DNA of 64,000 nucleotides from an uncultured Gammaproteobacteria bacterium (GTDB taxonomy: Bacteria; Patescibacteriota; Patescibacteriia; SG8-24). Positions 7,349-7,431 of the stretch are shown here, piece by piece. The position numbers and the translations under genes were made by a program. The stretch lies in NCBI GenBank assembly GCA_964407925.1, contig CAYOXM010000004.1, positions 12,389 to 76,388 of the forward strand. The letters run 5' to 3'. Below the pieces are notes generated by a model that worked only from the letters and a program-made list of their open reading frames with translations, had not been told where the DNA came from and did not search any database. How positions within the stretch are numbered: the first letter of the stretch is position 1; every line of letters begins with the position of its first letter.

Positions 7349-7431
7349 ATCGAAAGGTGAAAAGGTCGAGAGGTCAGAAATGACTTTGAAGCTCCAACCT
7401 TTGAACCCTTACCTTTTAAACTCAATCTTAC
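7349..7431 (-). repeat. intergenic imperfect-palindrome element A (AGGT-repeats ... ACCT-repeats), abutting ligA ATG
   Basis: Low-GC stretch; read on the coding (minus) strand: ...AAAGGTAAGGGTTCAAAGGTTGGAGCTTCAAAGTCATTTCTGACCTCTCGACCTTTTCACCTTTCGAT-ATG. Shares the core AACCTTTGAA and its architecture with elements B and C. Confidence 0.7.

What the first reader, a model, noticed from the sequence alone, without database searches (positions are those of the whole stretch)
7349..7431. Family of oriented low-GC hairpin elements (AGGT-repeats ... ACCT-repeats) placed exactly at start codons: copy A at ligA
Three ~80-120-nt elements (A 7349-7431, B 25154-25245, C 41951-42071) stand out from the ~67% GC background. 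They share the core AACCTTTGAA and repeated (A)AAGGT(T) and ACCT(TT) units. In every copy the orientation relative to the downstream gene is the same. On the coding strand the order is 2-3 AAGGT units, a spacer, then 3-5 ACCTTT units, ending 0-20 nt before the ATG of ligA, rnhA or the LOG gene. The AGGT and ACCT halves are complementary, so each transcript can form a long imperfect hairpin. ACCUUU resembles the 16S 3' tail (anti-SD) and AAAGGU resembles an SD, and the downstream genes lack their own SD. Constant orientation at three unrelated housekeeping genes argues for a cis-acting RNA element rather than a random MITE or REP. That element could be a translation-control or standby site, a protein-binding platform, a processing site or a terminator/antiterminator.
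Basis: seen in the sequence. Interest (0 to 1): 0.75.

Follow-up and report, generated by a model that had tools for sequence, protein, structure and literature searches.

The report
Tandem-repeat hairpins wedged between genes
The three low-GC elements are real hairpin-forming palindromes whose arms are short 7-8-base tandem repeats; they were gained recently between tightly packed genes of a candidate-phyla-radiation bacterium and belong to a widespread, poorly understood class of inverted simple-repeat arrays, so they are not conserved translation switches.

Summary
A (7349-7431), B (25155-25231) and C (41951-42045) are AT-rich palindromes in a 64.7% GC Patescibacteria (CPR) window. Their arms are tandem 7-8 nt units, (NNAGGTT)n ... 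(AACCTNN)n.

The "constant orientation" argument fails, because a palindrome reads AGGT-then-ACCT on both strands. Folding and G.U counts show no preference for the sense strand.

The elements are young and unstable:
- C is absent from relatives whose Era is 94% and 87% identical. It lies upstream of a conserved TGnTATACT promoter for the LOG gene, so it is not in the leader of transcripts started there.
- B occurs only in the closest clade. In more distant relatives recJ and rnhA overlap or lie 5-13 nt apart.
- A 79%-identity relative has five such hairpins in 22 kb, each with a different unit.
- Missing SDs are normal here (24 of 33 genes).

All such hairpins examined have the G-rich arm 5' on both strands (28:0 and 12:0 in cross-phylum samples). 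This appears to match the "convergent" GGGAATC heptamer pairs reported in Xanthomonas, whose function is unknown.

Best reading: slippage and template-switch generated inverted repeat arrays, tolerated at operon junctions, which act at most as REP-like intercistronic RNA hairpins. New variant of a known kind; moderate interest.

The parts
7349..7431 (-). Element A. Read on the gene (-) strand it runs from the stop codon of the pilin-like ORF (TAG, 7432-7434) to the ligA ATG (7346-7348). Sense 5' arm 7392-7431 (G-rich, 2 C), loop 7375-7391, sense 3' arm 7349-7374 (C/T-rich).
   Evidence: Sequence and inverted and direct repeats. The fold is weak: -22.7 kcal/mol, z -0.9. An orthologous copy is present in L167, where LigA is 87% identical.
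25155..25231 (-). Element B hairpin. Sense 5' arm is about 25201-25231 and is coding: it forms the last part of the RecJ tail ...GRVSELQRLERVNL*. The loop is about 25196-25200. The sense 3' arm is 25155-25195 and ends 1-2 nt before the rnhA ATG (25151-25153). The recJ stop codon at 25186-25188 lies inside the 3' arm.
   Evidence: -35.2 kcal/mol, z -3.4. Orthologous hairpins occur in L158, L159 and L160. The hairpin is absent in L161-L166.
41951..42045 (+). Element C. 5' arm 41951-41989 (GAGAGGTT GAAAGGTT GAGAGTTA ATAAGGTT AAAAG; no C). Loop 41990-42006. 3' arm 42007-42045 (ACCTCTCA ACCTTTTA ACCTTTCA ACCTTTTA ACCTT; no G). It starts directly after the era stop codon (41948-41950).
   Evidence: -42.3 kcal/mol, z -4.3. 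The empty orthologous sites in L168 and L169 show that C is a recent gain.
42055..42063 (+). Extended -10 promoter TGTTATACT of the LOG gene, 8 nt before the ATG at 42072. It separates element C from the start codon.
   Evidence: TGNTATACT occurs 3 times in the window against 0.05 expected, each 8-12 nt upstream of an ATG on the gene strand. TGCTATACT is conserved at the same place in L168 and L169, which lack element C.
5276..7348 (-). ligA (NAD-dependent DNA ligase), the gene downstream of A.
   Evidence: Pfam matches.
24749..25153 (-). rnhA (RNase H, 134 aa), the gene downstream of B.
   Evidence: Pfam matches.
25186..26985 (-). recJ, the gene upstream of B. Its variable C-terminal tail is encoded by the element's 5' arm.
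   Evidence: Pfam matches, translation and comparison of tails among homologues.
41090..41950 (+). era (GTPase Era), the gene upstream of C.
   Evidence: Pfam matches.
42072..42797 (+). LOG-family gene (Lysine_decarbox/SLOG), downstream of C and of its own promoter.
   Evidence: Pfam matches.

Best explanation
A, B and C are intergenic quasi-palindromes built from inverted arrays of 7-8 nt simple-sequence repeats, a G-rich array followed by its C-rich complement. They belong to the class of long simple-sequence-repeat arrays that also occurs as "convergent" inverted pairs in other bacteria.

Origin (inferred). They arise and turn over locally and quickly in this Patescibacteria lineage. The likely processes are replication slippage, which changes the unit number, and intrastrand template switching, which copies one arm onto the other. 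They survive only where they do no harm. In these very compact genomes that means the few bases between a stop codon and the next start or promoter.

They are not conserved, gene-specific regulators.

Effect when transcribed (inferred). A and B would be intercistronic RNA and C would lie in the 3' region of era transcripts. Each would fold into a 25-35 bp AU-rich hairpin without a U-tract. The most probable molecular effect is REP-like:
- a stable hairpin that shields the upstream cistron from 3' exonucleases;
- at A and B, a stop codon held at the 5' base of the stem and an SD-less start codon at the 3' base, so that termination-reinitiation coupling, which was ancestrally an ATGA overlap, could survive the insertion.

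Shown: anatomy, recency, gain and loss, polarity, and the lack of strand bias. Inferred: the mutational mechanism and every RNA-level effect.
For: Anatomy:
- The arms have 7-8 nt periodicity. The 5' half is C-poor and the 3' half is G-poor in all 12 CPR elements examined.

Recency and turnover:
- C is absent from L168 (Era 94% identical, 33-nt gap holding only the promoter) and from L169 (87%, 36-nt gap). No target-site duplication is visible.
- B is present in the window, L158 (RecJ 94%) and L159/L160 (79%). In L161/162 and L165, recJ and rnhA overlap by 4 nt. In L163/164 and L166 the gap is 5 and 13 nt.
- A is present in L167 (LigA 87%) and absent in L161.
- L159 has five such hairpins in 21.8 kb. 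Only B is shared with the window, and each has its own unit: GAGAAAT, GTTGTAG, AGGTATC, AAAGTTTG, GTGGAAA.

Template-switch and slippage signature:
- In L158 the 5' arm of B is conserved, but the 3' arm has been rebuilt as two tandem copies of CTCTAACCTTTGA, the exact complement of the 5'-arm CAAAGGTTAGAG.
- The arms of L159 element 2 mirror each other, including the order of variant units.

No sign of sense-strand RNA selection:
- G.U pairs number 27 against 29, and the sense strand is the more stable in 7 of 11 elements.
- Among three B orthologues, 2 of 26 pairs are compensatory.

Not terminators and not known RNAs:
- The genome has many canonical GC-stem plus U-tract terminators, and the three elements lack U-tracts.
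- Rfam gives no hit.

No mobility gene: no transposase, RAYT or reverse transcriptase among the genes called in the window and scanned with Pfam.

Class membership:
- The partner of a C-rich array is always on its 5' side: 28 against 0, and 12 against 0 for other units.
- Arrays without a partner abut a gene on the 3' side of the C-rich strand 48 times against 13, whatever the strand of that gene.
- This matches Rehm et al. 2015 (PMC4692102). They report the same distance rule, 70-75 convergent inverted pairs per Xanthomonas genome, and length variation between species.
Against: - The three window copies share AAGGTT/AACCTT units. Their 6-mer Jaccard is 6-15% against 0-5% between unrelated elements. 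Purely local de novo growth does not predict this; it hints at copying between loci or at unit-specific selection.
- Gaining a roughly 95-nt two-armed element within 6% protein divergence (C) is fast for stepwise slippage.
- The universal G-arm-first polarity is not explained by slippage or template switching. It calls for selection or for a strand-specific generating mechanism.
- No expression data exist, so the REP-like and coupling effects are conjecture.
- Hairpin bases touching the stop and start codons may be mere geometry of an insertion into a tiny gap.
- Two cases do not fit a coupling role: C (promoter downstream of the hairpin) and L159 element 3 (hairpin apparently inside a 5' UTR).
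Confidence: 0.5

Rival explanations
1. The elements are a dedicated cis-acting RNA that controls translation initiation of the downstream gene. SD-like AAAGGU repeats are sequestered by anti-SD-like ACCUUU repeats and act as a standby site, a ribosome tether or a translational switch for SD-less genes.
For: - The 3' arms end 1-7 nt before an SD-less ATG at A, at B and at four of the five L159 elements.
- The 5' arms contain GAGG/AAGG motifs.
- MacGregor 2015 (PMC4679880) reports heptamer direct repeats that end a few nt upstream of SD-less start codons in Beggiatoaceae, and proposes translational regulation.
Against: - The orientation argument is void because the elements are palindromes.
- There is no sense-strand folding or G.U advantage and no covariation.
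- C lies upstream of the LOG promoter.
- The elements come and go between close relatives at housekeeping genes that work without them.
- In L159 the units are unrelated to SD or anti-SD sequences, for example GTTGTAG/CTACAAC.
- SD-less starts are the norm in this genome.
Confidence: 0.1
2. A mobile, non-autonomous palindromic element family (REP/BIME-like or MITE-like), moved in trans by a transposase encoded elsewhere in the genome. The AAGGTT/AACCTT unit would be the family signature in this genome.
For: - Presence/absence polymorphism at orthologous sites, including a clean empty site for C.
- The three window copies share units and the 10-mer AACCTTTGAA.
- Similar AAGGTTAAAAGG units occur at a non-orthologous site in L161.
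- The Lentisphaera elements with a conserved core flanked by (GGTTGAAA)n/(TTTCAACC)n look MITE-like.
Against: - The copies cannot be aligned beyond short units.
- There are no conserved termini, no target-site duplication at C and no GTAG-type REP head.
- No transposase or RAYT gene occurs in 64 kb.
- The five elements of L159 share almost no 6-mers with each other, which copying from a master element does not predict.
Confidence: 0.15
3. RNA processing or 3'-end elements. The long AU-rich stems would be RNase III or other endonuclease sites, or factor-dependent terminators, that punctuate polycistronic transcripts. The upstream mRNA would keep a protective 3' hairpin, and the downstream cistron would be released as a leaderless or near-leaderless mRNA.
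For: - The genome appears to favour leaderless mRNAs. TGnTATACT lies 8-12 nt before ATGs and only 9 of 33 genes have an SD.
- Stems of 25-35 bp are long enough to be plausible RNase III substrates.
- The stems end 1-7 nt before the ATG at A, at B and at most L159 elements.
- C occupies the same slot (after a stop codon, before a promoter) that a canonical terminator occupies at 34425-34473.
Against: - There are no U-tracts.
- No expression or end-mapping data exist, and no rnc gene is seen in the window.
- The elements are dispensable in close relatives.
- In SD-using organisms of the cross-phylum sample the hairpin precedes a normal SD, so this cannot be general.
Confidence: 0.15
4. Arrays of binding sites for a protein that recognises one 7-8 nt unit per monomer. 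At the DNA level this could be a ribbon-helix-helix-type repressor or centromere protein that binds heptad arrays. At the RNA level it could be a cold-shock, S1 or CsrA-type protein, as MacGregor 2015 proposed for TAACTGA repeats.
For: - The 7-8 nt periodicity.
- The shared unit in the three window copies.
- The position at gene borders.
- From my own knowledge, not tested here: RHH proteins such as omega and MetJ bind tandem 7-8 bp boxes.
Against: - Units differ from element to element within one genome (L159), which would need a different protein for each locus.
- The elements are evolutionarily unstable.
- No candidate binder is encoded nearby.
Confidence: 0.1

Closest known systems
Convergent inverted pairs of heptameric simple-sequence repeats (GGGAATC in Xanthomonas, GGGGA(C/T)T in Nostoc; Rehm et al. 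2015, PMC4692102)
   Same: - Tandem 7-nt units in intergenic regions, mostly between aligned ORFs.
- The G-rich strand has its 5' end next to an ORF, whatever the orientation of that ORF.
- Xanthomonas has 70-75 pairs per genome in "convergent" orientation, which I read as G-arm first, and these can form stem-loops.
- Repeat number varies between related species.
- The repeats are not tied to any functional gene class, and their function is unknown.
- I reproduced the polarity rule and the G-first rule on independent data.
   Different: - The elements here are AT-rich, without G-tracts, so they cannot form G-quadruplexes.
- Units are 7-8 nt, and in relatives they differ from locus to locus instead of one genome-wide unit.
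- The host is a small-genome Patescibacteria lineage.
- The hairpins fill whole stop-to-start gaps of former gene overlaps.
- Turnover is faster. [quoted passage not shown]
TAACTGA heptamer direct repeats upstream of start codons in Beggiatoaceae, cyanobacteria and Bacteroidetes (MacGregor 2015, PMC4679880), and the long simple-sequence repeats of Mrazek et al. 2007 as cited there
   Same: - Heptamer arrays that end a few nt before SD-less start codons.
- A scattered phyletic distribution.
- Slippage was proposed as the origin of the arrays, and translational regulation as their role.
   Different: Those are direct repeats: 169 direct sets against one inverted set in one genome. They share a single genome-wide unit and have a forward orientation bias relative to the gene. 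Ours are inverted pairs that form hairpins.
REP/BIME extragenic palindromes of enterobacteria and pseudomonads (my own knowledge, not tested against sequences here)
   Same: Intergenic imperfect palindromes, often between co-transcribed genes. They form RNA hairpins that can stabilise upstream mRNA. This is the functional analogy I favour.
   Different: REPs are 20-40 nt GC-rich palindromes with a conserved head. They occur as hundreds of near-identical copies and are linked to RAYT transposases. Ours are AT-rich, have tandem-repeat arms, cannot be aligned to each other, and have no RAYT in the window.
Intrinsic (Rho-independent) terminators
   Same: A hairpin directly after a stop codon. C sits where a terminator sits at another junction of the window (34425-34473).
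   Different: There is no U-tract. The stems are AT-rich and 25-35 bp long rather than short and GC-rich. By my inspection, most of the canonical terminators listed have the C-rich arm 5', the opposite of these elements.

Membership tests
Inverted (convergent) 7-8 nt SSR arrays, Rehm-type | Arms made of tandem repeats of a 7-nt (here 7-8 nt) unit | tested here: met
   The best autocorrelation period is 7 or 8 in 22 of the 24 arms of the 12 elements; two weak arms tie with period 9. Direct-repeat families are listed.
Inverted (convergent) 7-8 nt SSR arrays, Rehm-type | Intergenic, within about 50 bp of an ORF border, with the 5' end of the G-rich strand proximal to the ORF and pairs convergent (G-rich arm 5' on both strands) | tested here: met
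   - A, B and C abut the stop codon and the start codon or promoter.
- The 5' half is C-poor and the 3' half is G-poor in all 12 elements.
- In the cross-phylum samples the partner is 5' in 28 cases against 0, and in 12 against 0 for other units.
- Polarity of partner-less arrays: 48 against 13.
Inverted (convergent) 7-8 nt SSR arrays, Rehm-type | Repeat number and sequence vary between related genomes while the locus is kept | tested here: met
   B in the window compared with L158 and L159. A in the window compared with L167.
Inverted (convergent) 7-8 nt SSR arrays, Rehm-type | One dominant unit used genome-wide | tested here: inconclusive
   The three window copies share AAGGTT/AACCTT units, but only 64 kb of the genome is available. 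Relative L159 has five different units.
Inverted (convergent) 7-8 nt SSR arrays, Rehm-type | G-quadruplex-forming G-tracts (four or more runs of GGG) | tested here: not met
   The units are AAGGTT-like, and no array has four G3 tracts. The elements share the architecture but are not the G4-forming subclass.
REP/BIME (RAYT-associated) | Many near-identical 20-40 nt palindromes with a conserved head tetranucleotide, and a RAYT gene in the genome | tested here: not met
   - The copies share only 6-15% of their 6-mers.
- There is no conserved terminus.
- No Y1 transposase occurs among the window genes.
- The genome-wide RAYT status could not be tested.
MITE | Terminal inverted repeats, a target-site duplication, and copies related by descent | tested here: not met
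   Comparing the filled site of C with the empty sites in L168 and L169 shows no duplication. The copies cannot be aligned.
Intrinsic terminator | GC-rich stem followed by a U-tract | tested here: not met
   No terminator-like site lies at A, B or C. Canonical terminators exist elsewhere in the window.
SD-sequestering riboswitch or RNA thermometer | The SD or start codon of the regulated gene is paired in the 3' arm, and the structure is conserved with covariation | tested here: not met
   The 3' arms are G-poor with no SD, and the ATG lies outside the stem. Covariation is absent. The elements are not conserved with their genes.
Any Rfam family | A match at or near the gathering score | tested here: not met
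   The whole window gives 0 hits at the gathering threshold. E-value searches at A and C return only far-sub-threshold matches, almost all to miRNA-precursor hairpin models. Related loci give 0 hits.

The most novel reading that the evidence does not exclude
Hairpins made of inverted 7-8 nt tandem arrays may be a pan-bacterial and phage class of actively generated elements that obey a universal polarity: the G-rich arm is always 5' on both strands, and the 3' end of the C-rich strand abuts a gene.

Two readings would follow:
- an unknown strand-specific generating mechanism, for example fold-back copying of a newly made G-rich repeat strand;
- or a general selective rule about what RNA may be transcribed into a gene, such as no SD-like purine repeats, or sequestered Rho-loading sequence.

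In leaderless-translating CPR bacteria the hairpins might serve as "hairpin punctuation". That would keep coupled translation of SD-less cistrons, or generate leaderless mRNAs for them.
Probability: 0.15. Interest if true: 0.8.

Novelty: new variant of a known kind. Interest (0 to 1): 0.45.

Why it matters
For this window, the result removes a tempting false lead. The "oriented" hairpins at ligA, rnhA and LOG are not a conserved translation-control RNA. Annotation pipelines should treat them as unstable repeat insertions. One of them has even rewritten the C-terminal tail of RecJ.

More broadly, the same architecture turns up in Patescibacteria, in several other phyla and in viral contigs, and it resembles the convergent GGGAATC pairs described in Xanthomonas. 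The G-arm-first polarity had almost no exceptions here: 28:0 and 12:0 with one detector, 22:1 at the strict threshold with another.

If that polarity reflects a generating mechanism, or a rule about transcription into genes, it would explain a decade-old unexplained observation. These compact CPR operons, with empty and filled sites in close relatives, would be a clean system to test it. The elements also show how tight, translationally coupled gene overlaps can be pried apart without obvious harm.

Tried and rejected
- **Rfam.** The whole window at the gathering threshold, A and C at E<=10, and eight related loci gave nothing beyond sub-threshold noise, mostly generic miRNA-like hairpin matches.
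Not built. The copies share only 6-15% of their 6-mers and cannot be aligned. The only alignable set, three B orthologues, gave 2 of 26 compensatory pairs and an unfavourable covariation term.
- **Sense against antisense stability as a test for RNA function.** No difference.
- **Orientation of AACCTTTN arrays relative to genes in 120 genome loci.** Random: 29 "++" against 28 "--". This rules out a sense-strand rule for the wider class.
- **Exact-protein look-ups of the window's own LOG and LigA.** Not on record. The source contig (78.5 kb, NCBI) could therefore not be extended or named.
- **Metagenome scan with Era.** Only 9 loci were returned.
- **Literature search.** Searching for the repeat strings found nothing relevant. 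A search combining "tandem repeats", "hairpin", "intergenic" and "Patescibacteria" gave 0 papers.
- **BLAST of a phage-type element against annotated phages.** No match, probably because of low-complexity filtering.
- **Composition-based detection of C-poor/G-poor run pairs.** It works in high-GC loci but is noise below about 55% GC.
- **Is AACCTTTN a special unit?** Same-composition control units gave 14 and 26 viral hits against 28 for AACCTTTN, so it is not. The cross-phylum hits are therefore analogues, not homologues. A third control (CATTCATN) was flawed because it also matches (CATT)n microsatellites.
- **Ideas considered and dropped.**
  - Integron attC sites: the flanking genes are housekeeping genes in conserved synteny.
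  - CRISPR-like 8-nt handles: the variable position of the unit is not conserved.
  - DNA-uptake sequences: units differ within one genome.
  - Promoters inside A or B: no credible -10 element.
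Full report
**1. What is in the sequence**

The window is 64.7% GC. Scanning 60-nt windows for low GC finds a handful of AT-rich islands. 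Only three of them are rich in AGGT/ACCT: 7326-7470, 25136-25245 and 41931-42065.

- AACCTTTGAA is exact in A and B. It occurs with one mismatch once more in B and four times in C. That makes 8 hits at <=1 mismatch against 1.4 expected, 7 of them inside the three elements. AACCTTT occurs 9 times against 2.8 expected.
- Each element is an imperfect inverted repeat whose arms are themselves tandem repeats of 7-8 nt. An example is C: GAGAGGTT GAAAGGTT GAGAGTTA ATAAGGTT ... ACCTCTCA ACCTTTTA ACCTTTCA ACCTTTTA.
- B and C fold much better than shuffled sequence (z -2.9 to -4.7). A does not (z -0.9 sense, -1.8 antisense).
- Rfam has nothing. The only sub-threshold matches are noise, mostly to generic miRNA-precursor hairpin models.

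**2. Gene context and organism**

Pfam identifies the flanking genes:
- A lies between a pilin-like ORF and ligA.
- B lies between recJ and rnhA.
- C lies between era and a LOG-family gene.

Every pair is co-directional. RecJ, LigA and Era homologues are named Parcubacteria, Uhrbacteria or Patescibacteria, so the window comes from a high-GC CPR bacterium.

The rest of the window holds housekeeping genes and a type IV pilus operon. No transposase, RAYT or reverse transcriptase is present.

The genome uses ordinary GC-stem plus U-tract terminators at many junctions.

It also uses an extended -10 box, TGnTATACT, 8-12 nt before start codons. This motif occurs 3 times against 0.05 expected, and TATACT 8 times against 1.4. 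That points to leaderless or near-leaderless mRNAs.

Only 9 of 33 genes with a clear start have a GGAG/GAGG/AGGA motif upstream. The missing SD at ligA, rnhA and LOG is therefore normal for this genome.

**3. The orientation argument**

For an inverted repeat this is true on both strands by construction, so it says nothing about orientation.

I looked for a real strand asymmetry in 11 elements from the window and its relatives:
- G.U pairs number 27 on the sense strand and 29 on the antisense strand.
- The sense strand is the more stable in 7 of 11 elements. The antisense strand is much more stable in two.
- For the three B orthologues, RNAalifold finds 2 of 26 pairs with double changes and an unfavourable covariation term.

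No evidence therefore singles out the sense transcript.

**4. Position relative to start codons**

- A: the 3' arm runs up to the ligA ATG.
- B: the stem ends 1-2 nt before the rnhA ATG. The recJ stop codon lies inside the element, and the last codons of RecJ (...GRVSELQRLERVNL*) are encoded by its 5' arm. RecJ tails after the conserved ...EIQLKLVDVR are hypervariable among homologues.
- C: it ends 26 nt before the LOG ATG, and TGTTATACT-N8-ATG lies in between. This layout is nearly identical to the terminator-promoter-ATG junction at 34425-34473.

**5. Orthologous junctions in relatives**

These comparisons are the most informative result.

| Junction | Element present | Element absent |
|---|---|---|
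| C (era-LOG) | window only. L149 (Era 71%) and L151 (66%) have hairpins at this junction built from unrelated units. | L168 (Era 94%): stop, 5 nt, TGCTATACT, 19-nt leader, ATG. L169 (87%): same layout. L165: 16-nt gap. L150 (Era 65%): about 50-nt gap without a hairpin. |
| B (recJ-rnhA) | window; L158 (RecJ 94%); L159/L160 (79%) | L161/162 (75%) and L165 (72%): 4-nt ATGA-type overlap. L163/164 (70%) and L166 (73%): gaps of 5 and 13 nt. |
| A (pilin-ligA) | window; L167 (LigA 87%), alignable | L161: the peptidase gene overlaps ligA. |

- C is therefore a recent gain. It was placed between the era stop codon and a conserved LOG promoter, and no target-site duplication is visible.
- Relative L159 has five such hairpins in 21.8 kb. 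Only B is shared with the window. The units are unrelated to each other: GAGAAAT/CTCAATT, GTTGTAG/CTACAAC, AGGTATC/CCTGATA, AAAGTTTG/CAAACTTT and GTGGAAA/CCACTTT.
- L158 carries a further array directly after rnhA, where the window has a canonical terminator.

The elements are thus gained, lost and remodelled on the time scale of a few percent protein divergence, at housekeeping genes that function without them. That is hard to reconcile with a dedicated regulator.

**6. Signs of the generating process**

- In L158 the 5' arm of B (coding) is conserved with the window. The 3' arm has been rebuilt as two tandem copies of CTCTAACCTTTGA, the exact complement of the 5'-arm CAAAGGTTAGAG.
- In L159 element 2 the arms mirror each other, including the order of variant units (a-b-a against a-b-c-a).

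Both patterns are what replication slippage plus intrastrand template switching (quasi-palindrome correction) would produce. That mechanism is my inference, not a demonstrated fact.

Against purely local origin, the three window copies share units more than unrelated elements do. Their 6-mer Jaccard is 6-15% against 0-5%.

**7. The wider class**

Scanning public collections for AACCTTTNAACCTTTNAACC gave 28 viral stretches. Many show the same array-loop-inverted-array architecture next to gene borders.

Same-composition control units are about as frequent in viral contigs: 14 and 26 hits. These hits are therefore analogues, not homologues of the window's elements.

Three statistics stand out:
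- Orientation relative to genes is random: 29 "++" against 28 "--".
- When a C-rich array has a complementary partner, the partner is on its 5' side.
  - AACCTTTN arrays: 28 against 0 at <=-20 kcal/mol.
  - Arrays of other units: 12 against 0.
  - A second, independent detector for AACCTTT-type arrays: 31 against 6 at -18 kcal/mol and 22 against 1 at -22.
  - The G-rich arm is therefore essentially always 5', and this property is strand-symmetric.
- Partner-less arrays have a gene closer on the 3' side of the C-rich strand 48 times against 13 (p = 8e-6), regardless of that gene's strand (31/31).

All 12 CPR elements obey the G-first rule. By my inspection, the window's canonical terminators mostly show the opposite arrangement.

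**8. Comparison with the literature**

- Rehm et al. 2015 (PMC4692102) describe GGGAATC and GGGGA(C/T)T heptamer arrays in Xanthomonas and Nostoc.
  - The arrays lie nearer to the ORF on the 5' side of the G-rich strand, "irrespective of the ORFs orientation".
  - There are 70-75 pairs per Xanthomonas genome in "convergent orientation", which can form stem-loops.
  - Array length varies between species, there is no functional gene class, and there is no known function.
- MacGregor 2015 (PMC4679880) describes TAACTGA heptamer direct repeats that end a few nt before SD-less start codons. The paper cites Mrazek 2007 on the excess of heptamer repeats and the slippage idea.

The window's elements therefore fit a known but unexplained kind. 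They differ in several ways:
- AT-rich units that cannot form G-quadruplexes;
- 7-8 nt units that are locus-specific in relatives;
- a CPR host;
- insertion into former gene overlaps.

**9. Interpretation**

Most likely (about 0.5) these are inverted simple-repeat palindromes generated by slippage and template switching. They persist only in the minimal gaps of compact operons.

Once transcribed they must form long AU-rich hairpins. The plausible consequences are REP-like protection of upstream mRNA and, at A and B, juxtaposition of the stop codon and the next SD-less start. That juxtaposition would let the termination-reinitiation coupling of the ancestral overlap survive. These RNA-level effects are inferred, not shown.

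Rivals:
- A mobile REP/MITE-like family (0.15): shared units and a clean empty site favour it; the lack of alignability, termini, target-site duplication and transposase count against it.
- Processing or 3'-end "punctuation" in a leaderless-translating genome (0.15).
- Protein-binding arrays (0.1).

The G-first polarity remains unexplained. Candidate reasons, none tested:
- avoidance of SD-like purine repeats being transcribed into genes;
- a Rho-related reason;
- a strand-specific fold-back mechanism.

**10. Verdict**

The regulatory interpretation is not supported. The elements are a new variant of a known, functionally unexplained class of repeat. Interest is moderate. It rests mainly on the striking polarity rule and on the availability of filled and empty orthologous sites for experiments.

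Noticed in passing
window 24686-24694(-), 34434-34442(-), 42055-42063(+); also TATACT at 18624(-), 30688(-), 63578(-): An extended -10 motif, TGnTATACT, sits 8-12 nt upstream of ATG start codons (3 hits against 0.05 expected). Only 9 of 33 genes have an SD-like tetramer. The lineage seems to rely largely on leaderless or near-leaderless mRNAs.
   Followed up: partly
window 25186-25230 (-): The last codons of RecJ (roughly the final 14, ...GRVSELQRLERVNL*) are encoded by the 5' arm of element B. RecJ C-terminal tails after ...EIQLKLVDVR are hypervariable among more than 40 homologues. Many end in (K/R)V*, which is consistent with a GTATGA stop/start overlap with rnhA.
   Followed up: partly
L158:4114-4149: The closest relative (RecJ 94% identical) has a (TAGTTNG)n C-free array directly after the rnhA stop codon, cut by the contig end. 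At this position the window has a canonical terminator plus promoter (24675-24748). This is another gain or loss between near-identical genomes.
   Followed up: no
L030:571-743, L034:2536-2701, L048:4162-4327, L062:3604-3760 (Lentisphaera MAG); L113:1396-1560; L096:439-537: These are multi-copy elements of about 100-170 nt. Each consists of (GGTTGAAA)3, a core and (TTTCAACC)3. The core is conserved among the Lentisphaera copies and begins with a possible mini-ORF (ATGAACAACAGCAAC...). They look MITE-like or small-gene-like. Rfam gave no hit for the three loci scanned (L030, L062, L113).
   Followed up: partly
L061:~430-560: A Verrucomicrobiota hairpin, (GGTTGAAA)3 ... (TTTCAACC)4. Its loop is itself an array of about 10 copies of GGCGGAA with no complementary partner.
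   Followed up: no
L001:~5290-5450 and L008 (viral contigs): Phage-contig versions of the hairpin carry a small terminator-like stem plus a T7 run in the loop (GGATGATTCCTTTTTTT), flanked by (GGTTCANN)n and (NNTGAACC)n arrays. L002/L010 have the hairpin directly before a normal SD and ATG.
   Followed up: no
L151:985-1240: The era-LOG junction of a relative with 66% identical Era has a hairpin of different units (GCTTGAAT.../...ATTCAAAC). It is split by a GC-rich nested palindromic insertion.
   Followed up: no
window 18682-23043(-) and 23004-24674(-): Two large proteins with no Pfam domain (1453 aa and about 556 aa) lie between rnhA and pilM. They are conserved in the same position in L159, L163 and L166 and are absent in L161 and L165. 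They may be accessories of the pilus operon.
   Followed up: no
window 12148-12294 (-): A long leader (about 100 nt) upstream of the major pilin gene. It has a TTGACC...TATAGT-like promoter, a 30-nt palindrome (CTTAGGCTCCTGATATCAGGGAGATCCTAAG) and one of the few strong SDs in the window (AAGGGAGGTGA).
   Followed up: no
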